A stretch of 64,000 nt of DNA from Marsupella aquatica (Eukaryota > Plantae > Marchantiophyta), in the NCBI GenBank assembly GCA_973895155.1, contig OZ316893.1, forward strand, positions 14,476,645 through 14,540,644. Direction: 5' to 3'. Shown one piece after another: positions 20,738-50,133 of the stretch. The notes beneath the pieces were generated by a model, which saw only the letters and a program-made list of their open reading frames with translations, did not search any database and was not told the DNA's origin. Position 1 is the first letter of the stretch. Every line of letters starts with the position of its first letter. A program made the position numbers and the translations under genes.

Positions 20738-23700
20738 TTGCACTAGTAGAAACCGGGGCAATTTAGACCAAACCTTATAGGACTAAGGCCACTAAGTCCT
20801 TTTTTACAACTTCAAATGACTCGGAACCATTGCACCGGTTCACATGAACACTACAAAAGACTTTGAGTGCTTTTTGGTTTAGGATAAGACTATGAAAAGT
20901 TTCCACGTACCCTACTTTGTGAAAGGGTGAACACTCTCGCACATGAGTGTTGTAGGGTTTAGTTGTGGGCCTCAATTTGATAATGGGCATATGGGGGGTT
21001 TACGTCCGCTATATTGAACACGTACAAACTCACTACATGTCTAAATGCCCTAATGTCTCATATACTCCATAGTGGGTTTAGGGGGGGTTTACGTCTCAAG
21101 GGTGGGCCGGTTATATGTGAAGGGTGTGGGTGGTCACCACTAAAGGGGGTTTAGTAGGGTTTATATGTCAAGGGTGGGCCGGTTAGGTCTCAAGGGGGTG
21201 GGGGTCACCAACATCCCGTTCTATTCAAGTTTGCCAAGCCAAGAACCGGGTGCACACATACCCAAGATTTTTGGGCTAGCATGATTTTCAATTCACAGCC
21301 GGCTCTACTTCACCAACATCCGGCTTTATTGAACTTTTCCAAGCCAAGAAAAATTTGCTGAAATACCCAAGATGGCCATGCAGTAACACTTCAATGTAGT
21401 GGTGTCTCACTTTGGGTGACACTCAACGGCTCACTCAAACGGTAAGGTTGAGTGGCTCCCCTTAATGACTTAAGTCCCCTAATCTAGTAAAGAGGCACTA
21501 AACTGGTCTTTGGGAGTGACTTTGGAGTGTTTGGGCCATCGTCATTGGACGCAAAACGTGAGGGGTCCAAGGTTCGGGGTTTTACGTTGGATTTAGGTTT
21601 TGGCTGTAGGGCTAAGAAGGTTGTGGCTGCTGCAACCTTCGATCGGAGCTAGTTGTGAGGGCTTCATTCTTCGGGGATTTTTGAGAGAAGGGCCTCTCAT
21701 TGTTGCACAATTCTCCTGACCCGCACTGCCGATGTGTTGTGGCTGCACCCAGAGCGACTTGGTGTTGCCATTTGTTTCAAGAAGGTTGTGCTACCATCGC
21801 GAGCTGTTGAGGAGAGGGCCAGTTGCTTGCAAAAGGATTTGTAGATTGTGTCGGAGGTCTAGATTTCTCCATTTCTACCAAGAAACGACGTGCAACAAGG
21901 CAATGTGGAGCGCAACGGCAATGTCCAGGGTAGTCCTGAGTGCTTAGGTCATTCCATTCCTTATGAGAAATGTCGTGCGGCAGGGCAATGTGCAGTGCAA
22001 CGGCAACAATGTCGAGGGCACTCCTTAGTGCTTAGGTTTTCAGTGAGTTGCAGTTCGAGAGGAGCTATGATCTGGGGACTGAGGCGCTGAGGGTTTAGCT
22101 GAGGGGAGGAGCTGTGATCTGGGAAGGTGTTGCGGTGCCAAGGTCTATTGTAAGGTGAGGTGATTGTTGCGGAAGTTTAACTGTAGTGGGTCCTTAAGGT
22201 CGCGGAGGCATTCAAAGGAGGCGTGAGTAGGGCGGCAATCGTTTGTTGCTGCGGAAGGAGGACATTGGAGTTGTGAAGGCGCTGTGGAAGGCGACCACTG
22301 CGGAAGGTGGACTGCAGTGGGTCCTTAAAGCTTGCGGAGGCATTGAAAGGAGGCTGAGCAGGGAGGCAATCGTTGCTGCTGCGGAAGGTGGACATTGGAG
22401 TTGTGAAGGAGGTCGTGGAGCTTAAAGAGCAGTTGCAAAATCGGGAGCCGGTTGTTTGTTAGGAGGAAGCAGTTGATAGTGCTGCCATTGGTTATCAGTG
22501 TCATCAGCCAAAGGTTAGTCCCGGCCATGCAGCTGAAAGTGCGCTTCTTTCATCCCTTTTCCAGCAACTTTAGTTCCACATTGTTTTGTTGGGTTGTCTG
22601 TTGAATACTTTCATTGCCTCTACAGGCTGAAGGTTACTATAGGCCCTGGCTTGCGCACCCACTCCTTACACTCATGCCCAAAAACCAAACAACAAGTAGC
22701 AGAGCTCAAGCAGATCCGCTCCGCTCTGTTCTCAGCTGGCTGCGTAGTAGCTACATCTCCTCTGGTCCATCCTATTTTGAGCAATGTCATACCTCCATAG
22801 CATACAGCTTGCCTGATTGAATGGTACATTAGGTTCAGCACATTCTCCCTATGGCTGAAGAGTTATGGAAAACCCCAACACAATGAAATTCGTTATGATT
22901 TGTCTTGGCAGTCGAAGCTGCTGAAATTGCCGATTCTGATTGGATTCGGTAGGAATTCAGAATTTGTTGAGTTTGTTTGTCGCTGGATATGAGTTATTCA
23001 AGACTCCATGATTTGAGAGAAGCCATTTAGCATCCCTTGTAGATCCTGGTACCATCTGACATTGTGAGGGCTCGAAAGCCTCAAGTGACCGGGCCATCGT
23101 TGTATGCAAATTTTTGTTGTTGTATTCATGTACATCCCTGCTTGGATGAGGCGTGGTGTTGCTTGTAATCATGTATTTCTTCACACTAGAAAAGCAGTCT
23201 GTCATATGAGGTTGTCGGGATTGTCTTCCGGTCAGTCATCTTACATCTTTGTGTTGTTTTGCGTTTCAGTGAAGGGCACTAGCAAGTAGCAAGAGCAGCG
23301 AGCTGGTGATTTGCACCTTAGGCTTGGGCTACGGAGGGAGTTGCTGCAGCACCACGACAGAGAACGAAAGCACGGGTAACATTACCACTATAATTGTTGA
23401 AGAAAATACCTTTACCTGCTGCCATTTAAGCCGAGTGCACCGCCTTAAGTTTAAAGATCCCGTTGCTGGTAAGACATCATGGCTACATTGCTTTTCGATG
23501 TTGTCCTCTGTCCTTTTGTGGGATTCAGCCTGAGCTAGCTGAATCCAATCCAGGAGTTGTTGCGCTAAGGTGAGACTTTGAGTTTAGGGTTGCTTGAGTG
23601 TCCGAGTAGGTTTTCTCTTTGCGTGGGCAGCTAGAAGGTAAGCTCGGGGGCTTTACAAAGGGTTAGTGTTGCGGACTTTCCCTCCTGGACGTTGTGTGTC

Positions 23701-25596: not shown

Positions 25597-26046
25597 ATGG
25601 TGAGGACCCGCAACGCTGAACATGTGCGGCTTGCACGCAAGGCAGAGATGTTGCGCCTTGAGTATGTCAGACTTGGGATCCTTCCAGCCCAGTCTGCATG
25701 GTACTTTGAGTACCCAGTTGTTGCCAGGAACAACTACAGTCGGCCTGTACCTGCTTCTCCACCCTTCTCAACATCCTTGGTATTTCTGTCTCTAGTACAT
25801 GACCCGCCACAAATTAGGGCCCAAGGGTGTGTGCACAGTTGCCAATATGACTGTCCTGCCTATAGGGCTTCTGGCCTAGAGTTGGATGACCGTTCTCTTG
25901 GATGTCGGTTTTTTCACAGAGCACAATGTATCATCTGGAACCACTCGCCATCCTGCAGTGTGCCTGGCGATGTCACTTGTCCTGCCCTCCCAGACCCCAC
26001 CACCGGTCACTTTGGTGTCTACACATGTTTGGATCACACGCTCTAG
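25597..26046 (+). CDS. Hypothetical Cys/His-rich protein (possible CACTA cargo)
   Basis: About 149-aa ORF (MVRTRNAEHVRLARK...) with a Cys/His-rich C-terminal half. Same strand as the adjacent cargo ORFs. No family recognised. Confidence 0.35.
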   Translation: MVRTRNAEHVRLARKAEMLRLEYVRLGILPAQSAWYFEYPVVARNNYSRPVPASPPFSTSLVFLSLVHDPPQIRAQGCVHSCQYDCPAYRASGLELDDRSLGCRFFHRAQCIIWNHSPSCSVPGDVTCPALPDPTTGHFGVYTCLDHTL

Positions 26047-26715
26047 AGGACCACTTGTCACACCGCATGCACAAACCAGAGACCATTGACCTATAACTTA
26101 ACACTTTGACTTGAACAGAGAGGATATTTACTTAAGATTTTGAATTATGACCAATTTTGGGTCCAGGGTTTAGGGTCAACAGTACATAACTTATCCTATT
26201 ATGGCTGCACTAAGTACAATATCCTAATTTAAGAGGCTAGCAAGCTCACTTAAAAGTCTCCTTTCAAAGATTGGAATTAATGGGCCATGTGATAACCTGG
26301 AAAAAGTGATTTCTGCCTAACTTATTTGTCTCATTCACTATCATAGCCTATTTAGGATGTATAAATTACAACCCTGATCACAGTGCTTGATACCAATCCT
26401 GTTCAAAAAATGCCTGTTTTACATGTCACGACTGTTATATGTGATTCAAATGCATTAAATCTTGTTGCAGATCTCCTTTGGTGAATCATAGCCACAAAAT
26501 TGAGGTGTAGGTGGAGCTATTGTACGAGGGGATCAGTTTTTAGTGTGGGCTCAACAAACCAAAAAGTATGTCTACTCTGCACATGTGTGTGAACATTTCA
26601 TTGCAGTAGCAATTGCCACTCTAGTCTATATGCTACACTGTACTTTTTGTACACTGCACTAAATTGTATTGTCTGTGCACTCTGCTAAATTGTACTATCT
26701 ATCTCATGCGTAGGC

Positions 26716-27396
26716 ATGGCACGCCCTAAAATCCGAGCCAAGAAGCGGGGGACAGAGGTGAGCAACACAGGTGTAGTTGGGCCAGATGGTAGTAACTTCT
26801 CCGCAAGTCAGATTTTCCAGAAGGCAGCTCATTGTTGTGCCATTTGTGACGATGGTGGTGGCTTAGCCATATGTGAGGGCCCTTGCATGAGGCATTTCCA
26901 CCTCAACCCGGAGTCTGACCTTGCTGCAGAAAACAACTGTCCAGGGGTGGGCCTCCCGTCAACACACCAGGGAGGCTGGATGTGCACTGATTGTTTGGAG
27001 AAGCAGGCTAAGTGTGCACAGTGTGGGAAGTTGGGGTCTTATGAGGGCTCTGTTGATGCTCCACCACTTGTTAGGAAATGCCCTGACAGATATTGTGTGA
27101 GGTTCTTTTGTTTTTCATGTTTGTCCGATCTTGCCACAGCTTGCCCACTTCATAAGTGCAAGGCATGTGGTCAGCACGATGAAGATTTCTGGGTGGACAT
27201 AGTCCACTGTGTTAGGTGTCCCACCATGTGGCACTTTCATTGTTTGAAGGAGCGTCAAGCAGAAGGCTATGCTTGTGACAGACACATCTATGATCACTCT
27301 GCACATGGTGTTGATCGATGGATCTTCTATTGTCATCGCCATGCCATAGATCCTACTTTGCACACTCCCATGAGAGATCACATTTCTTGGCTTTGA
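26716..27396 (+). CDS. Stand-alone EDM2-type multi-PHD-finger protein, 226 aa
   Basis: CAICDDGG...CEGPCMRHFH, CxxCGKLGS, CPLHKCxxC, CxRCPxxWHxxCL and the terminal YCHRHAIDPTLHTPMRDHI closely follow the PHD cassette of plant EDM2. Basic NLS-like N-terminus. Intact and intronless. Confidence 0.88.
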   Translation: MARPKIRAKKRGTEVSNTGVVGPDGSNFSASQIFQKAAHCCAICDDGGGLAICEGPCMRHFHLNPESDLAAENNCPGVGLPSTHQGGWMCTDCLEKQAKCAQCGKLGSYEGSVDAPPLVRKCPDRYCVRFFCFSCLSDLATACPLHKCKACGQHDEDFWVDIVHCVRCPTMWHFHCLKERQAEGYACDRHIYDHSAHGVDRWIFYCHRHAIDPTLHTPMRDHISWL

Positions 27397-27994
27397 ACCT
27401 GAATAATGTACATGCATAGTGCACCTGATGTGGATACCTTGGAGATTGCAGACATTCCAATTTTGAGAAGAAGGACCTCTGTAGGAGAGGATGCTTAGGC
27501 AACAAGTACCCTAAGTTCATTACTTGTTCCTGGGTACATGCCTTCAAAAACTCCCCTTAAGCCTTCTAGGAACTTTTTTAACTCTGCAATCATTTTGATC
27601 ACGACTTACATGACACTGCTTAAATTAAATCAGGACTTCTCATTATGAGCATATAAGTTACAAGGCTATTTAATTTGCGAGAATTCCCTTAAAGTGTACC
27701 AACATTTTGTATTCTCATTGAATGTCTGCCCATTTACAACATCTGTATGTGGCATCACAAAACAATTGCACTTGTCACCTTCAATATTGTGAAGGCACAT
27801 ATTCAAACTATGAGGTGCATGCTTGCAGGTGTCTAGTACGTTTGTCCCAATATTTCTCCCGTTTGGAATCGGAGCAGAGACTCACCAGACGATTGGACTG
27901 GACCAAGTTATAAACGCAGCATTTTAAGGGCCCTCCGATTATCAGGTGAACGCATTATCTTCCGGTCTGCAGTGATTAGGTGGCCCGTGTGTAC

Positions 27995-28843
27995 ATGGCC
28001 TCTAGGAAACGTACAAAGGTTGACCACCCGCCTCTGTTGGCTGGAATCAAAGCCATTTTGATTCCTGGCCACTATGGGTTCACCCAAGTGAGTTGGCCAA
28101 TCGTACAAAAACGATTCTCAGAGTTCCATGGGACTGAAGTCAAGGACATCACTCCACAGACTACACATGTTGTTGCGGGGACATGGCTGGATGTGATGAA
28201 CAAGTGGTCATGGTCCTTCATTGATTCTGCCATTACCAACCAAGGTCTAAAAGTAGTTGAAGTCTCTTGGCTGACCAATTCTGTTAAACATAGGTGTGTA
28301 CAGAGTACTGAGCAATATGAGTTGTGGGAGAGTGAGGAGGCCACTGCAGAGGCTTTGGCTGAAAAGGAAGCCTATGAAGTAGCGGCAGAGAAACCCAACT
28401 TTGCTTCTGTCCAATATGGACCTGTTGTCAACATAGGACACCATCCTATGCGTGCAGATGCTATATTGAATGAGCATGGCAAGGAGAGAAATACCATTAT
28501 GAAGGGGTTCAGTGTGGTATTTGCAGAAGAAGGAATTGGGGAGACTAAGTGCAGACTGTACAAGTCTATAGTTGTTGAGCTAGGTGGGACAGTGGAGGAG
28601 AGTCTAACAGAAACCTCCACTCATGTTGTAGGTCTGTCATACATGAAAATATGCAGAAAATTCTTTAAGACAACAGTGCGTGATTTTGTCATGAACAACA
28701 ATCTTTGGGTGCTTTCCCCTGATTGGCTTCTGGAATCAGCAACTAGAGGGAAGCGACAGAATGCTTGGGACTTTGATATTTTTGAGGCCTGGCCCTCCAA
28801 GATTCAGCGGAGATGTATGCTTAGCAAAGGTGGGAGAGAGTGA
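27995..28843 (+). CDS. Tandem BRCT-domain protein, about 282 aa
   Basis: Two repeats with THVV and W-L-x-x-S hallmarks (TTHVVAG...VEVSWLTNSV; STHVVG...LSPDWLLESA). Basic N-terminus RKRTK. Intact ORF. Confidence 0.85.
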   Translation: MASRKRTKVDHPPLLAGIKAILIPGHYGFTQVSWPIVQKRFSEFHGTEVKDITPQTTHVVAGTWLDVMNKWSWSFIDSAITNQGLKVVEVSWLTNSVKHRCVQSTEQYELWESEEATAEALAEKEAYEVAAEKPNFASVQYGPVVNIGHHPMRADAILNEHGKERNTIMKGFSVVFAEEGIGETKCRLYKSIVVELGGTVEESLTETSTHVVGLSYMKICRKFFKTTVRDFVMNNNLWVLSPDWLLESATRGKRQNAWDFDIFEAWPSKIQRRCMLSKGGRE

Positions 28844-29531
28844 GGAGTAGGAGTCCCTCATATTTTTGTATAAATCACAATTTTGTAATAAATGTGATCC
28901 TTGAACTAACTCATCTTGTCATGGTTGGTCGCAGTTGAAGTGATTGTTGTTTCCTGCTGCGTGGGGTGTGACTGTGAATCTACTTGCTGGGCTCTGTTTG
29001 GCTGAAGACTTTGGTGGGTATGCTGCCTCTTCCAGACCGTCAGGCCCTATGTAGGGTCCTCCTACGGGTTGCATCGTGCATGGCTACTGCTTGGGCTTAC
29101 TTGTGTGGATTGGTAACCAGACAGAGTGTAGCTCCATCCGAGATAATGCCTACAGACCTTGGATGTGTTGTGAATGCTGTGGTGAATGAGGATGCACAGT
29201 CGGAAGAGGACATTTACTTTTCAGCAGATGAGTTAGACAAGCACGATGCTGTAGGTGGTTCCTTGTTGCCTGATTTGGCAGATGATATAGTTCTTACACA
29301 TGTCTGGCCGAGGGTTCTTGTGGTGTCTGGCGCACAAGATATCTGAAAATATAGACTAATTAGTACCCAGTGGAGGGACTTGGTAGCAACATGTGCACCA
29401 TGGAGGGCACTGCTGCCACTGCTTGTAGGCACGGATCGAAGACCACCATGGCATGAGCAGGGTTTAGACCTTGATGACTTAATGTACATGCCTGAGTACC
29501 TCAGGGCTGAGTGGCATCGACAACAGGATTG

Positions 29532-32500
29532 TGTGGGATGGCTCAGTGTCAGCTAGTGTAGAGAAACATGACATTCTTTCGTTTAGAAGAGGAAATAGTT
29601 AGGGAAAAAGTTTTAGTGCTATCAGAGTAGCTAGGTTTAGGGCACTTAAGTAAGAAGGGAAGCTTAGTAGAGGTAAGAGGGAATTTAGTTATGCAAAGTT
29701 ATCTAGGGGTAAGCAAGTTACTATAGGAGGGGCAGGAAACTAGTCCGTCCTTAGTTATAATAGGCGACTAAGTCGGGACCGAAAAATGACCCGACACCGG
29801 ACATCTTATTTTTGGCTGATATTTCTCCCATGGGTGCTGGGAGGTCCCTAGGGAACCCTGAAAAAGTATGAAGTCAAGTGGGGTCTTAACCTAGGAGTTA
29901 TAAGTATTTTGGCAAAAATCAAAGTTACCAAATAGCGGGTCCCGGGAAAAATAGCTGATGGGTAAATGTAGGGGTTCCAAGTTTGGAAGTGGGTTAAGTA
30001 TGGTCCCCTCTATCCCTAGAAACTTGTGGGACAACTTTGTCACACTTGGTTACTTTTTGGGAGCATCTCAAAGTTGAGAAGAATTTTGGAAGACATAAAG
30101 ACTTGACCCTCTTTGCCTAATTTTAGAAAAGTTGTTATAGGGTTTTGTTTATATCTTAGTAAACCCGGACATAGTCCTATGTCCATAGAATCAGTGGAGC
30201 TACTCAGAAGTCCTTTTGGACTTATGTGTGAGTTTTGGAGGGGGGTCCAAAATCGCCCCAAAATGCTGTTTTTCCAAAAAAAAATGTATTTTTTTCTAAG
30301 TGTAAACCGCGTGGGCGACGATCACGCGGCGAGCACGAGGCAAGGAGGAGCGAGCACGAGGCAAGGAGGAGCAAGCACGAGGCTGGTGAGGACGTCAAGC
30401 ACCGGGAGGCTGTCCAAAGGTGCTGCATGATTACTTGAGGAATCAATTGAGCACAAGGGCGGCTGAATTGAAGGAAGGGCGGCTGAATTGAAATGGCTGC
30501 TGCTGATTGAAGAAGCTATGGCTGCTGAGAAGGAAAAGAGCTATGGCTGCAAATTAGGATCGCTGCTGGCTTTGAATTGGGAAGGCTGCTTGCTGCTATG
30601 ACAGCTGCACACTAGATTAGAGGTGCTCCTACTAATCAGGCACGAGATGCTCATGAGAATTGGCTGGCTGCTGCCTTGATGCTGCTGAATTGAATGATGC
30701 TGCTGCTAGCTGCGAAATTGCAAAGGTGGGCAGCTACGAAATTGAGAAGAGAGACCTGCTTGACTGAGAAGGAATCAAGCTATGGTTGCTGCTGCTGTGC
30801 TTCAAATCTGCTGTTGTTGTGCTGTAAATGCGCTGATGTGACTGTGCTGCTAGCTGCGAAATTGACTGTGTTGCTAGCGGCAAAATTGAAGAGGTGGGCT
30901 AGCTGCGAAATTGACTAGTCTGGCTGTGAGCTATGGTGGCTGTGAAATTGAGGGGCTGGCGGCTGATCAGCTGGACTGCTGCACAAGAAAGAATCCAATA
31001 GAGAATGCTGTGGTTTTAGATTGAATTCACGAGAGAGAAATGGCTGCAAACATTGCTGTCCTTACAATTTCTTCATAAGAAACATGAGTATAATGAGAGT
31101 GCTCTCCCCTCATGACACGTGGAATCCCCATAAGGGGCATGTAAGGTAAGTGTAATCGGGCCGCCGCTTACACCCGCTTTACACCAAAAACAGGCCTTGG
31201 GAGAATGGGCATAACTTTGGCTAGAGGTATCCGTTGGGGCCCAAATTTTTTTGTGCTGAGTTAGGGGAAGATAAGGCACCCCCTGGTGAAGGTGGAACCC
31301 CAGAAAAGTAATCACTCAAATATATTTTTAACCGAGGCCACGAGGGAGTCCCGACAACTTGCAAACCAAAGTCGGCATAGGGGAATGAATACCAGATTTA
31401 GGGGCTGACCTTTCTTGCACCCATACCACTTGAGTTAGGCTCTAGAGAAGGGTACTTACCTTTGGCCAAAGGTGTAAGGCCATCAAGTTAAGAAAAGTAA
31501 ATATAGGGGGTAGTTTACTTAGGGTAGTAAAGGGGTTACAAGTAAAATAAGGCCAACTTTGACTAGGCACAACTTGAGACTCACTCACTCTTTTTGCGAG
31601 CTTTCAAGTGGGTTGGTAAGCTGGTGAGGAGGACCATAAGTGGGAGTAGGTTTGGAAGTCAAAGCATACCACTCATGTGTGGCATATTCCAGGGCTTGGA
31701 AGGAGGCAAAATAGCAAGTAGTAGGGTGGGCTATGAACTATAGAGTTGGACTTTGTGTGTTAGGAGGACTTGGGGGAGGTATAGTTGGACCCCAGGTCAA
31801 GCTTGGTGTGATGTGGAAGGAGATAGTATATAAGGAGGAAGTTTTCATTTGTTAGGGACCGGGAGTCTCATCTCTTAAGTGAAATCTCTACCTTGCCAAG
31901 GTAGGGCTAAGCTTGAGAAAGGAGAGGTGGTCCATGCTTAGTGTGGAGAATGTGTAGTGAACTTTTGTTGTAAAGGTGATGCAATAAAAGGAGACTTACC
32001 AATCTTCATTGTGACCATTAAGTGTGAGTGCATTTGAAGTATATGAGAGCAAGAGAAGAGTCCATGCTATGGTATAATCTTGGTCTAAGCTTGAAGGGGA
32101 TGTGCTAGTACAAAACCAAGGCCAAGGAGGCAAGGTTAAGGTATAGCATTACTTTGAGACTTAGAGAGGATTATAGCTTGAGGGTGGAAAGTACTTTGCT
32201 TGGTGTGTGGTGTTAACAAGAAGTAAGAACAAGAGGAAGAGTCCTTAGATAGAGGAGCCTTCTCTAGGGCTCAAAGGGGATGTGTGGACCCAAACCAAGG
32301 CCAGGGGGGCAAGGTTGAGGGGTAACACTACTTTGAGGGTCTTGAGGAGACTTAAGCTTGAAGAGGAAAGTACTTTGGGTTCTTGGGTGTTTGTGTGAGA
32401 ATCTACTCTAAGGTGACAGCTTGGAGCGGAGATCCCCCTTGCTGATCCTTGGAGTAGAGGAGAGGGGAAGGGGTGAGTACAAAAGTAGTCAAGGGGACTA

Positions 32501-32668
32501 CCTCTCTAGAAGTGGAGAGTTGAAACTACTTATGTATGGAGTGATTGGACATTGTAAGCACACTTCAGAAGTTTTGTCAATCCTTTGTGACCTGGTATGA
32601 CATGGAGCAGGTATTAGGTAGTCTTTTGGGGAGAAAAGCCGCTTAAGCTCCTTGGCAAGTGTTTGACA
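29532..32668 (+). repeat. 5' LTR, 3137 bp
   Basis: TGTGGGATGG...GTTTGACA, repeated at offset 9294. Contains short internal repeats (gagcacgaggcaaggag x3 near 30330) and a diverged duplication at about 32084-32198 and 32263-32377. Confidence 0.97.
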
Positions 32669-32688
32669 TAGAGTCCCACCCTTGTTTT

Positions 32689-32706
32689 TGGCGCCGCTGC
32701 CGGGGA
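32689..32706 (+). promoter_or_regulatory. Primer-binding site, tRNA-Asp type
   Basis: TGGCGCCGCTGCCGGGGA, one mismatch from the Athila-type TGGCGCCGTTGCCGGGGA. Located 20 nt downstream of the LTR end. Confidence 0.85.
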
Positions 32707-32812
32707 CAACTCTTTACAGTTTTTGTTGGAGTGGAGCCACAAGACTTGGAGGTGTGTTTGCAGGTTTGCTGTTCAAGAGAAGAAGGGAGATAAGAAGGTG
32801 ATTGTGAGTGGC

Positions 32813-35800
32813 ATGCCCACTACAAGGAGTCAAGCACTAAAAGAAGCCTCTCTTAGTTTCAACTTTGGTGACCAGTTGGAGCAACCAGATTGGGTGGACA
32901 TTCATTTGCAAGCTGAAGCGGAACCTGGTGTAGGGTGGAGTGATACATCTTCTTCCACTACCAACACAAGTGAAGATCAAGAAGCAGCCATGGTGGTGAC
33001 TCAAAGAGCAAGATTTCAGTACAAGACATTCCATGGCAAGCCCAAGGAGGATCCTGATGCTTGGTTGGAGGACTTCATTGGGACAGCCCAAGCCAATGGA
33101 GAGTTTGATATTAAGTTGACCACTTTGGCGGGGGTCTTGAGAGGAGAAGCAAGACCTTGGTTCAATAGCCTATCAAATGCCATCAAGAATGATTGGGATG
33201 CCTTCAAGCTAGCATTCTTGCAGGAGTTTAGGAAGGTGGGAGAAGAATCGGAAGCTCTGATCAAGATGGGAGAGATCAGAATGGGATCCAAGGAGTCAGT
33301 AAGGAGGTTTCTGCAAAGGTTTCAAAGGTTAGCTACCAAGCTTGACCCCAGACCAGTAGACTCCATGTTGTTGGCTTGGTTTGTGGCAAGCCTACCCAGG
33401 AAGATGGGTGTCTCAGTAAGGCAATCTCACCCTAATACGTTGGATGAGGCCATTGAGGCGGCTCAGTCTTATAGGAGTGCTGAGATCTCTAGTTCCAAGA
33501 GTAGGAGAAAGAAGAAGCGATTTGCTTATAGTGATTCTTCTTCTAGCTCAAGTGAATCAAGTAGTTCAGTTGAGGATACTTCTGAGTCGGAATCTGAGGA
33601 GAGTAGTTCCAGTTCTGATTCAGAATCTGATTCTGAGGAGGACTCCGAGAAGAAGAAGAAGAAGAAGAAGGCAAAGAGAAAAAGCGACCAGAAGAGGAGA
33701 GCCAGCAAGAAGAAGCCAGGTGGTAAGCACCACAAATCTGCAACCTTCAACTTGGTGGAAGGTTCTACACCAGCAACCAAGGAGAAGAAGGTGATGGATA
33801 ACAAGATGAGTGAGATCACCAACCAACTCAAGGCCCTATCAGTTCACTTTGCTGGTGTGCAACCTGATAGGAGAAAAGTGCCGGTGAATAGAGCCCATGT
33901 ATGGTGTGTCAAGTGCAAGAGTTTTGGCCATACACCTCAAGAGTGTCAAGGTTGGAGGAATCAAGTTCAGTATGTCAATGAAGAGTCCAACGATGTTTAT
34001 CAAGCAAGTGAAGTGGTGGACTACTTCTATGAAGAAGCCCCGGAGATGGTGTACCAGATTTCAGGAGGCCCAAGAACTTTGCAAGGAAGACCAGCTCCAC
34101 CCATGGCACCTCAACTGATGCCTGGTCTTCAACCAAGGATGGTGGATCAAATGGGACCTCAAGGACCTGGGGGAGTGGCAAGAACTACCGTGGTGATCTG
34201 CTGGAACTGTCAAAAACCAGGGCACTATTCCAACAGTTGCCCCGAACCAAGGAGGCAGGGACAAGGAGCTCCCTATCCTCTTTGTGCTGTGTGCAAAAGG
34301 GAGGGTCATACCACAGCCAACTGTCCTATTGGATCTGCTGCCAAGATGATGATAGGAAGGATAGAAGCACCACCACCAGCGGTTGCCAAGGCTCCCGGTG
34401 AAGCCACAGTGAACTTCTTGAGTATGGAGTGGCAAGAGGAGGCCAAAGATGGAGTGACACAAGTTGCTGGTGGGGAGAACCAGCCAGATCTACCAGGAAT
34501 GGAGACACCTGAGGAGGAAGCTGTGTGTTACAAGGTGTCTACCAGGTCCACAAGAAAGAAGGAAAGAGTGGAAGAGAGGAAGAAGAGGAAGGAGAGAAAG
34601 GAGCACTCAACGGAGTCACCAATCGAAGTTGAAGTTGGAGCAGAAGTTCAAGTCCCACCAGCTGAAGATAGTGACTACAAGAGAGACCATCCGAAGCTCT
34701 TCTATCCCAAGGTGAATGAGGAAGTCAAGAGGCAACTAGAGGAGATGGAGGCTAAGGAGCATCAAGAGGCCATCAACAAAGACCTGAAGGTTGCTAAAGC
34801 TTTGAAGGAAAAAGCTGAGGTGGAAGAGAAGAAAGAGACCAGCAAGGTACCCTCTTATGACATCAAGAAGGATGTGAAAGATTGTTTGGTTACTGCTACA
34901 GTGGGGCAGCTGATCAAAGACAACCCTTTGTATAGGAGGCAACTGAAGGAGATGTTGGTAGGAAGGAGAAGAAGGAAGCTTCCAAAGGTTGGTACCCCAG
35001 CTGATGTGATGATGGTTTGTGAAGACCTTGGAGCACCTGAGATTGATGTTCAAGTAAATGGGTGTGTACTCTCGTATGTACCAGTTGATGGAGGCTCAGG
35101 TGTGAATATCATGATTGAGGCTACTGCCCAACAACTAGGTTTCAAGAAACTTCAGCCAACAGCAAGGACAATGAGGCTAGCAAATGGAGCAAGAGTGCTA
35201 CCGGTGGGGACTCTTACTCAAGTACCTACTCTCATTGGGGGGCAGGAGTTCTTGTTGAATTACTTGGTGATGAGACCAGCAAGGCCATCTACTTACCCAA
35301 TCTTGATTGGGAGGCCTTGGCTATATGGAGCCAAAGTAGTGTCTGATTGGGGCAAGAAGGAGTTTAGGTTTGGCAAACCAGCCACTTCAGTTTCATGGGG
35401 TCATGACAAGCATCAAGGAGAGACTACTGATGAGTTGGATGAATATGATTCTGAACTTTCCGATGAGTTGAGTACCAAATCTGAATCTGATGAGGATGAG
35501 GTATACATGTTGAACATGGTGAGCCAATGGACTGAAGAAGAAGTGTTTGGAGAGGAGCAAGAGCAGGAGGCTCTTACCAGCCATTCACCTCTGCCCAGTC
35601 TCAGTGAAGTGACCAGTCTCGAGGAGGTGAAGCAGGCTGAGACCTCGGCCAAGGAGAGCAACCAAGAAGACACTATCACAATGGCTCAGGAGGTTGATCA
35701 GACCAGCAAGGGTGCTGCCCAAGTTGAGATCAAGACAAGGAGTAATGACCAGAGTTTAAAGGCTAAGCACTTAGCCTTGTTAAAGCTCAAGATAAAGGAG

Positions 35801-38785
35801 CTAGAGGACCAATTGAAGGCTGCAAACTCAGAGGAGGATGAGACTCAGGAAGACCAGCATTCAAGCAAGGAGAAGGAGGAGTTAAGTGCTGAAAATGCAC
35901 CCGTCTATGGAGGCATGAGGTTGGCACAACTTGAGGGCACTTTTGACTCCACAATGAGGAACAAGATGGAGGTGATTCGAGCTGAGCAGTACAGAACCAT
36001 CTCTGTCCAGCAAGACAAGACCTTCAACTTGGGAAATGCCCTGGGATCAGGTGAAGAGAAAACTATCCAAGATTTGCTAGGTGAATATGTGGATGTGTTT
36101 GCTTGGAGTCACTTGGATCTTACTGGTGTAAACCCTGAACTTGGTGAGCATAGAATCGACTTGATGCTAGGAGCTTCACCTGTGAGACAAAGGCAATATC
36201 GGATGAATCCCAAGTACTCCTTGATGGTGAAGGAAGAGATAGACAAATTGCTGGAAGCAGGTTTCATCTATCCTGTGTTGAATAGTGAGTGGGTTTCTCC
36301 AATTGTCATAGTACCAAAGAAACCAGGCTTGGATGGTAAGCCTAAGATCCGAGTTTGCCAAGACTTTAGGAAACTCAATGAGGCCACTAAGAAGGACCAC
36401 TATCCCATTCCATTTACTGATATGGTACTTGATTTAGTAGCTGGTTGGGAAGTGTATAGCTTCCTAGATGGGTACTCAGGTTACAACCAGATTTGGATAA
36501 GGAAGGAGGACCAGTTGAAGACAGCCTTTACTACTGAGTGGGGGATTTATGCCTTTCGGAGGATGCCTTTTGGTCTTTGTAATGCCCCTGGTATGTTCCA
36601 AAGGTTGATGATGAATATCTTTCATGACTACTTGAGAAAGTTCTTGGAAGTATTCATAGATGACTTTGCTGTTTTTGGAAGGGGGAAGGACCATGTTGAA
36701 CATTTGAGGATGACCTTCCAAAGATGTAGGGAAGTTGGTTTGAAGCTTCACCCAGGGAAGTGCTTCTTTGGTGTGGAAGAAGGGATACTACTTGGCCACA
36801 AGGTATCCAAGAAGGGCATAGAAGTGGACCAAGAGAAGGTTGCTGTTTGGATGGCTGTCAAGTTTCCAACTTCAGTGACAGAGTTGAGGGGATTCTTGGG
36901 ATGTTTAAACTACTATAGAAGGTTCATTAAGGACTTTGCTAAAGTAGCTTTACCCCTAACCAGCATGCTTAAGAAGGGGGCTGAGGTTGAACCCTCAGTT
37001 GAGAGGCTAGCAAGTTTTCAGGAGTTGAAGAACAGGTTGGTTGAAGCCCCTATCTTGATAGCACCAGATTGGAGTAGAGAATTTCATGTGTATGTGGATG
37101 TGTCTGGCTTTTGTATTGGTGTGGTGCTTAGTCAACTTGATGACCAGAATAGGGATCACCCTATCTACTTTGCAAGTAGACTATTGGCACCAGCTGAAAA
37201 GAATTACTCACCAACCGATAGAGAAGCTCTAGGAATCATCTACTCTTGTAAGAAGTTTAGGCACTACTTGTTGGGCTATAAGGTGGTCTTTCATACTGAT
37301 CACAATGCTCTCAAGTATATGGTGAATAAACCTGATGTAACTGGTAGAGTGGCAAGGTGGATCTTGTTGCTCCAAGAGTTTGATTATGAGGTGAGGGTCA
37401 GGCCTGGTAAGAAGCATGGGAATGCAGACTTCTTCTCAAGGATTGAAGGAGAAGAGGACTTGAAGGAGGTGGATGATCAGTTTCCAGATGAAGACCTCTT
37501 TCATGTGGGAAGTGGAGGAGATACATGGTATTTGGATATCATCCAATTTCTTCTCACAACCCGGCTACCAAGAGATTTGAACCAAGAGGAGGCTGCTGTT
37601 TTCCTGAGAAAAATCAGACCTTACTTATTGGTGAAGGGTGTCCTTCACAAGGAAGGAGTTGATGGGAGACTAAGGAGGTGTTTGGAGAAGAAGGAAATCT
37701 CCATTGTGATGAGAGCTATGCATGAGGAGGAGGCTGGTGGCCATTATGCAAGTGCAACAACAGCAAGGAAAATTCTTGATGCAGGGTATTGGTGGCCAAC
37801 ACTTCATAAGGATGTAAGTCTTTTTGTGAGGGGATGTGACCCTTGCCAAAGGACAGGTAAGCCAGCTCACTCAAGGCATCACCCTCTTACCACCATCTTA
37901 CCTCTTGCACCTTTTGAGAAGTGGGGTATAGATTTCATAGGTCCCATCACTCCTGTGACCAGGTCTAGAAGGAATCGATACATCCTTCTTGCAACTGATT
38001 ATGCTACTAAGTGGGTAGAGGCAAGACCAACCAGCAAGGATAATGCTCTCACAGTAGCAAGGTTCATGTATCAACAGATTTTTACCAGATTTGGGCCACC
38101 TCTAGAGCTGGTTAGTGATAGGGGGACTCACTTCTTGAATGAAGTTGTGGAGGAGCTCACTAACCATTACTTGATTAAGCATAGGAAGACCACCCCCTAT
38201 CACCCCAAGGCCAATGGATTAACGGAGAGAGCTAATGGCATCATTGGCAAGATCTTGAACAAAACCGTGGCGGCACACAAGACTGATTGGGATGACAAAT
38301 TATACTCAGCTGTGTACTCCTACAACCTTGCTTTCAAGACCACAACCGGCCATAGTCCTTTCTACCTAGTATTTGGACAACACTCCCTTGTACCTGTTGA
38401 GTTTGAAGTGCCTACTTTGAGGGTAAGTGTGGAGGAGAGAATGGAGGCTGACCAGAGTTTAATGGAGAGAGCTTACCAGCTGGAGGAGTTGGAGGAAATC
38501 CGGGAAGAGGCAAGCAAGCAAGTGAAGAAGAAGCAAGCTCAAGTGAAGCAACATCATGACAAGAAGTTGAAGAAGCCAACTTCTTTACTTGCTGGACAAC
38601 TGGTATTACTCTATGACAGTAGGTATGCTCATTTTCCAGGCAAGTTGCATACTCGGTGGTTGGGTCCTTATGTTGTTCACCAGGTTTATGCTAATGGGTC
38701 AATTCAGCTTGCTACTCTTGAAGGAGAGGTGTTCCCTACTAGAGTGCATCATGATAGGTTGAAAAGGTACTTTAATCAGGAATAA
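32813..38785 (+). CDS. Gag-Pol polyprotein (gag, three CCHC knuckles, protease, RT, RNase H, integrase)
   Basis: Uninterrupted ORF of about 1990 aa from MPTTRSQ. Three CxxCxxxxHxxxxC motifs; VDGGSG protease; FLDGYSGY, MPFGLCNAP and FIDDF; YVDVSG RNase H; integrase HHCC with WGIDF, SDRG and NGLTER; C-terminal GPY. Gypsy domain order. Confidence 0.98.
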   Translation: MPTTRSQALKEASLSFNFGDQLEQPDWVDIHLQAEAEPGVGWSDTSSSTTNTSEDQEAAMVVTQRARFQYKTFHGKPKEDPDAWLEDFIGTAQANGEFDIKLTTLAGVLRGEARPWFNSLSNAIKNDWDAFKLAFLQEFRKVGEESEALIKMGEIRMGSKESVRRFLQRFQRLATKLDPRPVDSMLLAWFVASLPRKMGVSVRQSHPNTLDEAIEAAQSYRSAEISSSKSRRKKKRFAYSDSSSSSSESSSSVEDTSESESEESSSSSDSESDSEEDSEKKKKKKKAKRKSDQKRRASKKKPGGKHHKSATFNLVEGSTPATKEKKVMDNKMSEITNQLKALSVHFAGVQPDRRKVPVNRAHVWCVKCKSFGHTPQECQGWRNQVQYVNEESNDVYQASEVVDYFYEEAPEMVYQISGGPRTLQGRPAPPMAPQLMPGLQPRMVDQMGPQGPGGVARTTVVICWNCQKPGHYSNSCPEPRRQGQGAPYPLCAVCKREGHTTANCPIGSAAKMMIGRIEAPPPAVAKAPGEATVNFLSMEWQEEAKDGVTQVAGGENQPDLPGMETPEEEAVCYKVSTRSTRKKERVEERKKRKERKEHSTESPIEVEVGAEVQVPPAEDSDYKRDHPKLFYPKVNEEVKRQLEEMEAKEHQEAINKDLKVAKALKEKAEVEEKKETSKVPSYDIKKDVKDCLVTATVGQLIKDNPLYRRQLKEMLVGRRRRKLPKVGTPADVMMVCEDLGAPEIDVQVNGCVLSYVPVDGGSGVNIMIEATAQQLGFKKLQPTARTMRLANGARVLPVGTLTQVPTLIGGQEFLLNYLVMRPARPSTYPILIGRPWLYGAKVVSDWGKKEFRFGKPATSVSWGHDKHQGETTDELDEYDSELSDELSTKSESDEDEVYMLNMVSQWTEEEVFGEEQEQEALTSHSPLPSLSEVTSLEEVKQAETSAKESNQEDTITMAQEVDQTSKGAAQVEIKTRSNDQSLKAKHLALLKLKIKELEDQLKAANSEEDETQEDQHSSKEKEELSAENAPVYGGMRLAQLEGTFDSTMRNKMEVIRAEQYRTISVQQDKTFNLGNALGSGEEKTIQDLLGEYVDVFAWSHLDLTGVNPELGEHRIDLMLGASPVRQRQYRMNPKYSLMVKEEIDKLLEAGFIYPVLNSEWVSPIVIVPKKPGLDGKPKIRVCQDFRKLNEATKKDHYPIPFTDMVLDLVAGWEVYSFLDGYSGYNQIWIRKEDQLKTAFTTEWGIYAFRRMPFGLCNAPGMFQRLMMNIFHDYLRKFLEVFIDDFAVFGRGKDHVEHLRMTFQRCREVGLKLHPGKCFFGVEEGILLGHKVSKKGIEVDQEKVAVWMAVKFPTSVTELRGFLGCLNYYRRFIKDFAKVALPLTSMLKKGAEVEPSVERLASFQELKNRLVEAPILIAPDWSREFHVYVDVSGFCIGVVLSQLDDQNRDHPIYFASRLLAPAEKNYSPTDREALGIIYSCKKFRHYLLGYKVVFHTDHNALKYMVNKPDVTGRVARWILLLQEFDYEVRVRPGKKHGNADFFSRIEGEEDLKEVDDQFPDEDLFHVGSGGDTWYLDIIQFLLTTRLPRDLNQEEAAVFLRKIRPYLLVKGVLHKEGVDGRLRRCLEKKEISIVMRAMHEEEAGGHYASATTARKILDAGYWWPTLHKDVSLFVRGCDPCQRTGKPAHSRHHPLTTILPLAPFEKWGIDFIGPITPVTRSRRNRYILLATDYATKWVEARPTSKDNALTVARFMYQQIFTRFGPPLELVSDRGTHFLNEVVEELTNHYLIKHRKTTPYHPKANGLTERANGIIGKILNKTVAAHKTDWDDKLYSAVYSYNLAFKTTTGHSPFYLVFGQHSLVPVEFEVPTLRVSVEERMEADQSLMERAYQLEELEEIREEASKQVKKKQAQVKQHHDKKLKKPTSLLAGQLVLLYDSRYAHFPGKLHTRWLGPYVVHQVYANGSIQLATLEGEVFPTRVHHDRLKRYFNQE

Positions 38786-38812
38786 GTGTGTTTGCGGGGA
38801 CGCTGCACACTT

Positions 38813-38822
38813 AAGTAGGGGG
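38813..38822 (+). promoter_or_regulatory. Polypurine tract
   Basis: AAGTAGGGGG, ending 3 nt before the 3' LTR. Confidence 0.75.
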
Positions 38823-38825
38823 CTA

Positions 38826-41800
38826 TGTGGGATGGCTCAGTGTCAGCTAGTGTAGAGAAACATGACATTCTTTCGTTTAGAAGAGGAAATAGTTAGGGAA
38901 AAAGTTTTAGTGCTATCAGAGTAGCTAGGTTTAGGGCACTTAAGTAAGAAGGGAAGCTTAGTAGAGGTAAGAGGGAATTTAGTTATGCAAAGTTATCTAG
39001 GGGTAAGCAAGTTACTATAGGAGGGGCAGGAAACTAGTCCGTCCTTAGTTATAATAGGCGACTAAGTCGGGACCGAAAAATGACCCGACACCGGACATCT
39101 TATTTTTGGCTGATATTTCTCCCATGGGTGCTGGGAGGTCCCTAGGGAACCCTGAAAAAGTATGAAGTCAAGTGGGGTCTTAACCTAGGAGTTATAAGTA
39201 TTTTGGCAAAAATCAAAGTTACCAAATAGCGGGTCCCGGGAAAAATAGCTGATGGGTAAATGTAGGGGTTCCAAGTTTGGAAGTGGGTTAAGTATGGTCC
39301 CCTCTATCCCTAGAAACTTGTGGGACAACTTTGTCACACTTGGTTACTTTTTGGGAGCATCTCAAAGTTGAGAAGAATTTTGGAAGACATAAAGACTTGA
39401 CCCTCTTTGCCTAATTTTAGAAAAGTTGTTATAGGGTTTTGTTTATATCTTAGTAAACCCGGACATAGTCCTATGTCCATAGAATCAGTGGAGCTACTCA
39501 GAAGTCCTTTTGGACTTATGTGTGAGTTTTGGAGGGGGGTCCAAAATCGCCCCAAAATGCTGTTTTTCCAAAAAAAAATGTATTTTTTTCTAAGTGTAAA
39601 CCGCGTGGGCGACGATCACGCGGCGAGCACGAGGCAAGGAGGAGCGAGCACGAGGCAAGGAGGAGCAAGCACGAGGCTGGTGAGGACGTCAAGCACCGGG
39701 AGGCTGTCCAAAGGTGCTGCATGATTACTTGAGGAATCAATTGAGCACAAGGGCGGCTGAATTGAAGGAAGGGCGGCTGAATTGAAATGGCTGCTGCTGA
39801 TTGAAGAAGCTATGGCTGCTGAGAAGGAAAAGAGCTATGGCTGCAAATTAGGATCGCTGCTGGCTTTGAATTGGGAAGGCTGCTTGCTGCTATGACAGCT
39901 GCACACTAGATTAGAGGTGCTCCTACTAATCAGGCACGAGATGCTCATGAGAATTGGCTGGCTGCTGCCTTGATGCTGCTGAATTGAATGATGCTGCTGC
40001 TAGCTGCGAAATTGCAAAGGTGGGCAGCTACGAAATTGAGAAGAGAGACCTGCTTGACTGAGAAGGAATCAAGCTATGGTTGCTGCTGCTGTGCTTCAAA
40101 TCTGCTGTTGTTGTGCTGTAAATGCGCTGATGTGACTGTGCTGCTAGCTGCGAAATTGACTGTGTTGCTAGCGGCAAAATTGAAGAGGTGGGCTAGCTGC
40201 GAAATTGACTAGTCTGGCTGTGAGCTATGGTGGCTGTGAAATTGAGGGGCTGGCGGCTGATCAGCTGGACTGCTGCACAAGAAAGAATCCAATAGAGAAT
40301 GCTGTGGTTTTAGATTGAATTCACGAGAGAGAAATGGCTGCAAACATTGCTGTCCTTACAATTTCTTCATAAGAAACATGAGTATAATGAGAGTGCTCTC
40401 CCCTCATGACACGTGGAATCCCCATAAGGGGCATGTAAGGTAAGTGTAATCGGGCCGCCGCTTACACCCGCTTTACACCAAAAACAGGCCTTGGGAGAAT
40501 GGGCATAACTTTGGCTAGAGGTATCCGTTGGGGCCCAAATTTTTTTGTGCTGAGTTAGGGGAAGATAAGGCACCCCCTGGTGAAGGTGGAACCCCAGAAA
40601 AGTAATCACTCAAATATATTTTTAACCGAGGCCACGAGGGAGTCCCGACAACTTGCAAACCAAAGTCGGCATAGGGGAATGAATACCAGATTTAGGGGCT
40701 GACCTTTCTTGCACCCATACCACTTGAGTTAGGCTCTAGAGAAGGGTACTTACCTTTGGCCAAAGGTGTAAGGCCATCAAGTTAAGAAAAGTAAATATAG
40801 GGGGTAGTTTACTTAGGGTAGTAAAGGGGTTACAAGTAAAATAAGGCCAACTTTGACTAGGCACAACTTGAGACTCACTCACTCTTTTTGCGAGCTTTCA
40901 AGTGGGTTGGTAAGCTGGTGAGGAGGACCATAAGTGGGAGTAGGTTTGGAAGTCAAAGCATACCACTCATGTGTGGCATATTCCAGGGCTTGGAAGGAGG
41001 CAAAATAGCAAGTAGTAGGGTGGGCTATGAACTATAGAGTTGGACTTTGTGTGTTAGGAGGACTTGGGGGAGGTATAGTTGGACCCCAGGTCAAGCTTGG
41101 TGTGATGTGGAAGGAGATAGTATATAAGGAGGAAGTTTTCATTTGTTAGGGACCGGGAGTCTCATCTCTTAAGTGAAATCTCTACCTTGCCAAGGTAGGG
41201 CTAAGCTTGAGAAAGGAGAGGTGGTCCATGCTTAGTGTGGAGAATGTGTAGTGAACTTTTGTTGTAAAGGTGATGCAATAAAAGGAGACTTACCAATCTT
41301 CATTGTGACCATTAAGTGTGAGTGCATTTGAAGTATATGAGAGCAAGAGAAGAGTCCATGCTATGGTATAATCTTGGTCTAAGCTTGAAGGGGATGTGCT
41401 AGTACAAAACCAAGGCCAAGGAGGCAAGGTTAAGGTATAGCATTACTTTGAGACTTAGAGAGGATTATAGCTTGAGGGTGGAAAGTACTTTGCTTGGTGT
41501 GTGGTGTTAACAAGAAGTAAGAACAAGAGGAAGAGTCCTTAGATAGAGGAGCCTTCTCTAGGGCTCAAAGGGGATGTGTGGACCCAAACCAAGGCCAGGG
41601 GGGCAAGGTTGAGGGGTAACACTACTTTGAGGGTCTTGAGGAGACTTAAGCTTGAAGAGGAAAGTACTTTGGGTTCTTGGGTGTTTGTGTGAGAATCTAC
41701 TCTAAGGTGACAGCTTGGAGCGGAGATCCCCCTTGCTGATCCTTGGAGTAGAGGAGAGGGGAAGGGGTGAGTACAAAAGTAGTCAAGGGGACTACCTCTC

Positions 41801-41963
41801 TAGAAGTGGAGAGTTGAAACTACTTATGTATGGAGTGATTGGACATTGTAAGCACACTTCAGAAGTTTTGTCAATCCTTTGTGACCCTGGTATGACATGG
41901 AGCAGGTATTAGGTAGTCTTTTGGGGAGAAAAGCCGCTTAAGCTCCTTGGCAAGTGTTTGACA
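38826..41963 (+). repeat. 3' LTR, 3138 bp
   Basis: Near-identical to the 5' LTR; the ORF-track peptides are identical in both. The only difference noticed is one extra C near 41885 (gtgaccctgg versus gtgacctgg). Confidence 0.97.
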
Positions 41964-46015: not shown

Positions 46016-46192
46016 GCAACAGCTGGCGATTGGCAAGTATGAGGTTGAGGATGACTACGTGCACAGAGTCACAGAACGGGAATTGCTGCCTGGAATGATG
46101 TTTAGGATAGTTGGATATGCATGAAATTGATTGATACTTTGAATTTAGTGTGCTGATTCTCCCTGTTTGGTTGTGGGTGCTGTGCAGAAGCT

Positions 46193-50100: not shown

Positions 50101-50133
50101 TGGGGTCTAAATACCCCCCGGTTTCTACTAGTG

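What the first reader, a model, noticed from the sequence alone, without database searches (positions are those of the whole stretch)
25597..29531. CACTA element with a co-oriented cassette of captured single-domain genes: PHD, BRCT and F-box
Seen: three or four short intronless plus-strand ORFs in a row upstream of the transposase. The PHD and BRCT ORFs are intact, each trimmed to the domain and each with a basic NLS-like N-terminus. Known: CACTA elements capture host fragments, usually as decaying pieces, and some DNA transposons encode anti-silencing proteins (for example VANC of VANDAL MULEs). Inference: a histone-mark reader, a repair-complex adaptor and a ubiquitin-ligase adaptor together look like a host-manipulation toolkit rather than random capture.
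Basis: partly seen in the sequence, partly recalled or inferred. Interest (0 to 1): 0.82.

Follow-up and report, generated by a model that had tools for sequence, protein, structure and literature searches.

The report
Transposon carries miniature EDM2 chromatin reader
A plant jumping gene carries its own stripped-down copy of the histone-reading part of the host protein EDM2, with signs of being kept by selection, which likely binds silenced chromatin and would help the element stay active there.

Summary
The element is real: a CACTA transposon (20741-50133, TIRs, TTG duplication, uninterrupted 1150-aa transposase frame) with plus-strand passenger ORFs. The PHD ORF is not a generic finger. 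It is the whole PHD module of EDM2, the plant reader of H3K9-methylated transposon chromatin, cut out exactly (29% identical to Arabidopsis EDM2, 35% to the Marchantia homologue), intronless, with a basic leader. Nine such stand-alone proteins (36-81% identical) form one clade (100/100) apart from all host EDM2s and share a His-to-Cys ligand swap and a ~20-aa deletion. Variants among copies are enriched for silent changes (11 of 24; omega about 0.3-0.4), and cysteines are kept. So it is neither a recent capture nor neutrally decaying. The BRCT ORF has two repeats and one 61% homologue; selection among copies is not shown (4 of 9 silent). The 'F-box' matches no profile, is broken here and in some other copies, and lacks a basic leader. 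The fourth ORF is unidentified. Expression, histone binding, and that the distant homologues also lie in transposons are untested. I found no report of a transposon-borne EDM2 module. Verdict: a new variant of transposon-encoded chromatin accessory genes; the three-part 'toolkit' is only partly supported.

The parts
20738..20740 (.). Target-site duplication TTG (left)
   Evidence: empty-site junction seen as loose ends in run X2 at 20740
20741..20758 (+). Left terminal inverted repeat of the CACTA element
25597..26046 (+). ORF0, 149 aa, Cys/His-containing, unidentified; may not be a gene
   Evidence: no family or look-alike; chance of such an ORF 49 of 200; highest summed contig depth bin in 3 of 4 runs
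26716..27396 (+). Mini-EDM2: 226 aa, basic leader plus the complete EDM2 PHD module, intronless
   Evidence: selection signs
27995..28843 (+). Twin-BRCT ORF, 282 aa, basic leader, donor unknown
   Evidence: PF00533 E 3e-13; internal repeat; one 61% homologue cluster
29020..29531 (+). F-box-like frame (motif by eye only), in-frame stop at 29344-29346 in this copy, 3' end split by the LTR element; start codon uncertain
   Evidence: all laid contigs of 4 of 4 runs differ from the window at 29346
29532..41963 (+). Nested Ty3 LTR retrotransposon, LTRs 3137/3138 nt, 5-bp duplication GATTG; a later passenger, not part of the cassette
   Evidence: empty-site junction in runs X1 and X3
41964..41990 (+). 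LTR target duplication and last codons plus stop of the F-box-like frame
   Evidence: loose ends at 29531 continue into this sequence
42315..46015 (+). TnpD-type transposase, three predicted exons (42315-44105, 44241-45142, 45256-46015), 1150 aa, no internal stop
   Evidence: PF02992, PF13960, PF13952, PF13963; GT-AG introns and C(2)C / H(3)H motifs; splicing is inferred
46190..49360 (+). TnpA-like multi-exon gene, in-frame stop at 48978-48980 in this copy; limits approximate
   Evidence: weak PF03004 E 0.014
50116..50133 (-). Right terminal inverted repeat
50134..50136 (.). Target-site duplication TTG (right)

Best explanation
This CACTA transposon carries a small gene made of EDM2's PHD zinc-finger module alone, which was likely captured once long ago and kept by selection, and whose protein likely binds histone H3 tails on silenced chromatin and would help the element stay expressed or mobile there. 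Shown: the module's identity and exact trimming, its separate clade, silent-site excess and cysteine retention, multi-copy state. Inferred: capture through an RNA copy (host-type genes have introns in this module, this ORF has none); nuclear import through the basic leader; H3 binding. Proposed working: lacking EDM2's replication-foci and methyltransferase-like parts, the protein would be a reader with no effector. It would sit on H3K9-methylated nucleosomes of the element and either displace host EDM2 and other readers that reinforce silencing, or bridge the element's own proteins to silenced copies. The twin-BRCT protein is probably a second maintained accessory gene, by domain type an adaptor to repair factors at transposition breaks; the F-box-like frame is a looser passenger.
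For: Profile search of 1.84 billion proteins: 550 hits at E<=1e-3; of the 150 listed, most are long proteins with the module near residues 220-430; those named are EDM2 or non-seed-plant homologues (20 clusters looked up). Window ORF residues 41-225 align with Arabidopsis EDM2 225-432 (29%, E 1e-25) and the Marchantia homologue 598-811 (35%, E 1e-29), including the EDM2-type tail that the NSD-like rows lack. Nine stand-alone proteins form one clade, 100/100, stem 1.03 changes per site, on the EDM2 side of 5 NSD-like outgroup rows (39 rows; also 97* in 144 rows). All nine share a His-to-Cys swap in finger 2 and loss of a ~20-aa linker; most stop within a few residues of the module's end. Cysteines kept 22/22, 22/22, 20/22, 20/22, 18/22 against 135, 130, 89, 57, 55 of 166 other core residues (p 0.015 to 4e-7). 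Variants at >=20% share in run X2 (40 of 46 shown): PHD 11 silent of 24, expected 21-27%, p 0.005-0.03, omega about 0.3-0.4; 15 of 24 at third positions (p 0.003); none makes a stop; the 3 listed indels all fall in the spacer. Thousands of variant contigs lie on the region in 4 of 4 runs; in LTR-free copies the cassette runs on into the sequence just upstream of the transposase. 13 of 14 short or frame-broken database proteins tested match the mini family better than hosts, as expected of a gene with many dead copies. EDM2's PHD domains are reported to bind H3K9 methylation (PMC5364540, PMC4980392, PMC9910501 passages) and EDM2 represses the DNA transposon Mu1 (PMC3632883 passages).
Against: No binding, expression or mobilisation data. 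Only this copy and its near relatives are shown to lie in a CACTA; the 36-53% homologues have no genomic context, and no laid contig spans the cassette. The acidic stretch before finger 1 in host EDM2 is replaced by a basic leader and finger 2 is remodelled, so mark specificity may have changed or been lost. Omega of 0.3-0.4 is moderate, rests on 24 non-independent sites from one run and includes this copy's private changes. A histone reader has no sequence specificity, so how the benefit stays with this family is unexplained without an untested tether. EDM2's effect on transposons goes both ways (represses Mu1, favours COPIA4; PMC3632883). BRCT: 4 of 9 silent, not significant; a 1-nt insertion at 28418 in 8% (X2) and 47% (X5) of depth; F-box-like frame: a 43-nt deletion in X2 and X5. 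The tree does not resolve a donor lineage.
Confidence: 0.42

Rival explanations
1. The mini-EDM2 is a selected accessory protein, but it steers where the element inserts: a reader partner of the transposase that directs integration into heterochromatin or other repeats, as a PHD partner serves the RAG1/Transib-type transposase.
For: Same selection evidence. EnSpm and Transib/RAG1 share the CMCT transposase motifs (PMC12730594 section 4), and a RAG1-type transposon with a Kelch-PHD partner is proposed in PMC4411706 (passages). This copy landed inside an ORF of another multi-copy sequence in a repeat-dense window. A targeting partner needs no sequence specificity of its own.
Against: One insertion site only; repeat-dense genomes give such sites by default. 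No interaction with the transposase was tested.
Confidence: 0.22
2. Passive cargo: Pack-type capture that hitch-hikes with a successful element; conservation reflects the gene's earlier life in the host or survival bias among many copies.
For: Pack-CACTA capture is common and mostly yields pseudogenes (PMC13317346, section read). Many broken fragments exist; deletion derivatives and frameshift variants occur among copies. Databases of called proteins favour copies that stayed open.
Against: Silent excess among present copies; cysteines kept across a clade up to about 60% diverged that arose after the split from host EDM2; shared trimmed ends and a rebuilt zinc site; no host gene closer than about 35%.
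Confidence: 0.16
3. The family is mainly a host gene (a short EDM2 paralogue of one plant lineage, kept for the host's benefit) that this CACTA picked up more recently.
For: PHD-only EDM2-like host genes exist in grasses (252-339 aa cluster named from wheat and Aegilops; loci L001-L004, L006, L007) and short paralogues in liverworts. The window's own genome is not available, so a closer donor cannot be excluded.
Against: None of the 7 mini-family clusters looked up comes from an annotated genome; the grass proteins keep the His ligand and introns and fall elsewhere in the tree; many frame-broken relatives suggest a repeat-borne gene.
Confidence: 0.12
4. Small-RNA camouflage: the captured sequence protects the element by sharing silencing signals with an essential host gene.
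For: Proposed for captured genes in general (PMC13317346, passage).
Against: At 29-35% protein identity to known host EDM2s no shared small RNAs are expected; the constraint seen is on the protein, not the DNA.
Confidence: 0.03

Closest known systems
EDM2 (ENHANCED DOWNY MILDEW 2) of the ASI1-AIPP1-EDM2 complex (PMC7529245 introduction read; PMC9910501, PMC5364540, PMC4980392, PMC3632883, PMC9292364 passages)
   Same: The complete 2.5-repeat atypical PHD module with its C-terminal tail; 29% identical to Arabidopsis, 35% to the Marchantia homologue.
   Different: 226 aa against about 1300; no replication-foci domain (PF12047 in 7 of the long hits scanned) and no methyltransferase-like domain; His-to-Cys swap and ~20-aa deletion in finger 2; basic instead of acidic leader; no introns; inside a transposon.
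VANC / KIU of VANDAL MULEs (PMC13317346 section and passages; PMC13547354 passages)
   Same: A separate accessory gene of an autonomous plant DNA transposon, traced to a host chromatin regulator (MAIN) or carrying a captured domain (Ulp1).
   Different: VANC is sequence-specific and shown to remove silencing; this protein is a predicted histone reader with no function shown; different superfamily and no sequence kinship.
TET/JBP genes of fungal DNA transposons including EnSpm, and SET genes of HarbingerS / oomycete MuDR (PMC12730594 abstract, section 4, passages)
   Same: Captured chromatin-acting host genes carried intact between TIRs, in the same superfamily for fungal EnSpm.
   Different: Those are enzymes (erasers, writers); this is a reader without a catalytic part, in a plant.
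Pack-CACTA / Pack-MULE transduplicates (PMC13317346)
   Same: Host-derived coding pieces inside CACTA ends, upstream of or without a transposase.
   Different: Pack elements mostly carry recent, near-identical, decaying fragments; here the piece is old, trimmed, intronless and shows purifying selection in an element with an open transposase frame.
RAG2-like Kelch-PHD partner of Transib/RAG transposons (PMC4411706 passages)
   Same: A PHD-bearing second gene beside a CMCT-clade transposase.
   Different: Different PHD type, no Kelch propeller, no shown partnership with the transposase here.

Membership tests
CACTA / EnSpm DNA transposon | Termini 5'-CAC(TA)...(TA)GTG-3' as inverted repeats | tested here: met
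CACTA / EnSpm DNA transposon | 3-bp target-site duplication | tested here: met
   TTG both sides; empty site in run X2
CACTA / EnSpm DNA transposon | TnpD-type transposase (Transposase_21, DUF4218, DUF4216) with C(2)C and H(3-4)H motifs | tested here: met
CACTA / EnSpm DNA transposon | TnpA-like second product | tested here: inconclusive
   weak PF03004 match E 0.014, below cut-off; in-frame stop in this copy
EDM2 family (PHD module) | 2.5 atypical NSD-type PHD repeats ending in C4HC2H plus the EDM2-type C-terminal tail | tested here: met
   finger 2 has a Cys in place of one His ligand
EDM2 family (PHD module) | Groups with EDM2 rather than other NSD-like PHD cassettes | tested here: met
   the 5 outgroup rows were labelled NSD-like by me from Pfam and the missing tail
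EDM2 family (full protein) | N-terminal replication-foci domain and methyltransferase-like ELP domain | tested here: not met
   ORF ends right after the PHD module; it is a derivative, not an EDM2
EDM2 family (PHD module) | Binds H3K9-methylated histone H3 | not testable with these tools
   needs peptide binding assay
Transposon anti-silencing proteins (VANC-like in function) | Encoded by the element and maintained by selection | tested here: met
   PHD ORF only; moderate strength
Transposon anti-silencing proteins (VANC-like in function) | Lowers methylation or restores expression of its own family | not testable with these tools
   no methylome, ChIP or transgenic data
Pack-CACTA (recent passive capture) | Captured piece near-identical to a host donor and decaying neutrally | tested here: not met
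   best long host matches 28-35%; silent excess; the host's own genome could not be searched
BRCT-domain proteins | BRCT profile match above curated cut-off | tested here: met
   PF00533 50.2 bits against 21.3
F-box proteins | F-box profile match | tested here: not met
   no Pfam or PDB hit at E<=10, pieces or read through with X; resemblance is by eye and recalled

The most novel reading that the evidence does not exclude
An old CACTA lineage has turned the host's own reader of the transposon-silencing mark into a mimic: a stand-alone EDM2 PHD module that occupies H3K9-methylated chromatin to block or redirect the EDM2 pathway, working with a BRCT adaptor and an F-box-like adaptor as a multi-gene host-manipulation cassette.
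Probability: 0.27. Interest if true: 0.87.

Novelty: new variant of a known kind. Interest (0 to 1): 0.7.

Why it matters
Few transposon-encoded counter-silencing proteins are known in plants, and those described are sequence-specific DNA binders or enzymes. A selected, stand-alone copy of the EDM2 reader module would be a different route: using the host's reader of the silencing mark itself. It gives a small, directly testable protein for asking how elements are expressed or targeted inside heterochromatin, a natural truncation for dissecting what EDM2's PHD module does alone, and possibly a compact probe or competitor for H3K9-methylated chromatin.

Tried and rejected
Whole-genome copy collection: no genome is held, so full-length copies, copy number and a proper dN/dS could not be obtained. 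Expression: no RNA holder listed among 5 runs; this says nothing either way. 'Longer' word-based search found only 1 NSD-like algal protein among 3562 candidates and missed EDM2, which the full profile search found. Metagenome scan: 11 loci of 221 pattern matches, none a mini-family member; 7 are host-type EDM2-like contigs and none matches the cassette's other ORFs or the transposase. Viral contigs: 0 of 42. Structure models: PHD mean pLDDT 54, only PHD/PZP-type matches in PDB; BRCT model pLDDT 32, unusable. BRCT donor: only weak PDB matches (DNA ligase 4, BRCA1, TdT; E>=0.009); a resemblance to DNA polymerase lambda's BRCT is recalled and untested. ORF0: no usable Atlas hit. Shared promoter or leader among cassette genes: no meaningful similarity. 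The neutral open-frame simulation (0.108, 0.045, 0.003, 0 and 0 of 1000 runs staying open at 81, 75, 53, 39% PHD and 61% BRCT identity) was not used as main support, because protein databases select for open frames. Summed contig depth is higher over the cassette than over the 5' arm in 4 of 4 runs but is not a copy number. No complex prediction was run: the key partner is a modified histone tail. Four primary EDM2 papers (PMC3890799, PMC5584460, PMC4203584, PMC3773791) are not held; binding claims come from passages of later papers. Six look-ups of earlier scan notes gave nothing on this element.
Full report
THE ELEMENT. Both ends are flanked by TTG. The element splits a minus-strand ORF that is open for 775 codons across the empty site, and the empty junction itself is seen in contigs of run X2, so the limits are secure and the insertion is probably recent. 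A TnpD-type transposase (PF02992 E 1e-59, PF13960 E 2e-27) can be spliced through two GT-AG introns into 1150 codons without a stop. The TnpA-like gene has only a weak Pfam match and carries a stop in this copy. A Ty3 retrotransposon with LTRs differing by one indel sits at 29532-41963; contigs of X1 and X3 show the junction without it, so in other copies the cassette ends about 325 nt before the transposase start. The host is a plant by inference from these element types and from EDM2; I did not determine the lineage, and no genome is held.

THE PHD ORF IS THE EDM2 MODULE. Pfam sees three NSD-type fingers, each below the curated cut-off. A length-limited search gave 5 homologues among 107 candidates, 217-245 aa and 81-38% identical, all unnamed. 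A profile of these six against 1.84 billion representatives gave 550 hits; 150 were listed. Of 20 clusters looked up, those with names are EDM2 of flowering plants and Selaginella or unnamed homologues of liverworts, a moss, a lycophyte, a fern and algae. Residues 41-225 of the ORF align with Arabidopsis EDM2 225-432 (29%, E 1e-25) and the Marchantia homologue 598-811 (35%), through to the tail motif that NSD-like cassettes lack. The ORF stops one residue later. EDM2 is described as having 2.5 atypical PHD repeats plus a methyltransferase-like domain, binding H3K9me2 chromatin at transposons and suppressing premature polyadenylation there (PMC7529245, introduction read); its PHD domains are said to bind H3K9 methylation (PMC5364540, PMC4980392, PMC9910501; passages); it represses the DNA transposon Mu1 but favours COPIA4 (PMC3632883; passages). 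I could not read the primary binding papers.

AN OLD, SEPARATE FAMILY. In a 144-row FastTree the nine full-length stand-alone proteins, with two long unlabelled rows, lie on one side of a 97* branch. In a 39-row IQ-TREE run on rows I picked to cover named lineages plus five NSD-like outgroups, the nine form a clade at 100/100 with a stem of 1.03 changes per site, on the EDM2 side, with no sister resolved. All nine replace a histidine ligand of finger 2 by cysteine and lack a ~20-residue linker. By a pattern count, 125 of the 150 listed hits carry the host form, 7 the mini form, 18 neither. Of 14 short or frame-broken proteins tested, 13 match the mini family better than any host, the picture expected of a gene with many dead copies. 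Host-type EDM2-like contigs carry GT-starting inserts at four places in this module while the window's ORF has none, which suggests capture through RNA or later intron loss; those contigs need not represent the donor.

SELECTION. The 22 core cysteines are kept far more than other residues in all five first homologues. Among contigs of run X2, 46 places differ at >=20% share over 26700-28860; 40 were shown: 24 in the PHD ORF, 9 in BRCT, 7 in the spacer. PHD: 11 silent against 21-27% expected (p 0.005-0.03 by assumed transition bias; omega about 0.3-0.4), 15 at third positions (p 0.003); read in the two off frames the silent counts are 2 and 8 of 24. BRCT: 4 silent, not significant. None of the 33 makes a stop, and the three listed indels are all in the spacer. 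Limits: one run, linked sites, neighbouring changes in one codon counted singly, and this copy's private changes included.

BRCT, F-BOX AND ORF0. The BRCT ORF holds two repeats and has one homologue cluster among 637 candidates, 61% identical, same start and basic leader. That it stayed open and aligned over 270 residues suggests maintenance, but its donor is unknown, and a frameshift variant at 28418 makes up 8% of depth in X2 and 47% in X5. The F-box-like frame has a stop at 29344-29346 that is private to this copy: all laid depth in 4 of 4 runs reads another base. Yet no profile recognises it even read through, and a 43-nt deletion inside it appears in X2 and X5. ORF0 is unidentified and of chance-compatible length. 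No laid contig spans the cassette, so constant gene order across copies is not shown.

HOW IT LIKELY WORKS. Shown steps end at: an element-borne, constrained, reader-only protein. Inferred: it enters the nucleus and binds H3 tails, most plausibly on H3K9-methylated chromatin as its donor does. Finger 1 keeps the core pattern shared with AIRE PHD1, but the acidic stretch that precedes it in host EDM2 is replaced by a basic leader, so specificity may differ (the role of such residues is recalled). Without EDM2's other domains it would act by occupancy or as a bridge. I put about 0.7 on 'selected accessory gene of the element', split into counter-silencing (0.42), insertion targeting (0.22) and other uses; passive cargo 0.16; mainly a host gene 0.12.

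NOVELTY. Transposon-borne chromatin proteins are known: VANC and KIU (PMC13317346 section and passages; PMC13547354 passages, which also trace a TnpA domain to NODULIN HOMEOBOX), TET/JBP in fungal EnSpm and SET genes in Harbinger and MuDR (PMC12730594 abstract, section 4, passages). I found no report of a transposon-encoded EDM2 module or of PHD/BRCT cargo in CACTA in ten library searches (listings and abstract starts only); the 2026 review has no 'PHD' and the Arabidopsis TE-product atlas no 'PHD', 'BRCT', 'F-box' or 'EDM2' in its main text. Repbase entries, subscription journals and supplements were not seen and could hold a description. Verdict: new variant of a known kind, interest 0.7.

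Noticed in passing
window 19513-20740 and 50137-51236 (-), with 18488-18997 (-) and 51400-53079 (-): The CACTA interrupts a 775-codon ORF with a weak DNA-methylase match (PF01555, E 0.0016) flanked by a NIF-phosphatase-like ORF and an unidentified 559-aa ORF; the empty site is in several contigs of run X2, so this looks like another multi-copy element with its own cargo.
   Followed up: partly
proteins P0045 and P0182-P0195; loci L001-L004, L006, L007: Grasses have an independent PHD-only EDM2-like family (252-339 aa in wheat and Aegilops), some with a basic N-terminus, keeping introns and the His ligand: a convergent truncation of EDM2. Whether those genes are transposon-borne is unknown.
   Followed up: partly
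proteins P0015, P0018, P0020, P0030, P0032: A clade of shorter EDM2 paralogues (619-768 aa; named members from the liverworts Riccia and Calypogeia) ends at or soon after the PHD module.
   Followed up: partly
window 25683-25981: The ORF0 region has the highest summed contig depth in 3 of 4 runs although it matches no family; it may be a conserved non-coding part or an unrecognised gene.
   Followed up: partly
window 55651-58964 (+): Broken transposase-like gene with DUF7869 matches, preceded by a 73-nt tandem array at 55057-55640.
   Followed up: no
window 3497-7073 (-): Frame-broken LINE (endonuclease and reverse-transcriptase-like pieces, recognised by eye).
   Followed up: no
window 53120-53706: 65-nt tandem array with inverted copies of a GC-rich unit.
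   Followed up: no
window 29532-41963: Very young Ty3 element with unusually long (3.1 kb) LTRs and an open 1990-aa polyprotein frame; strong G-over-C skew runs from 28 kb to 49 kb.
   Followed up: partly
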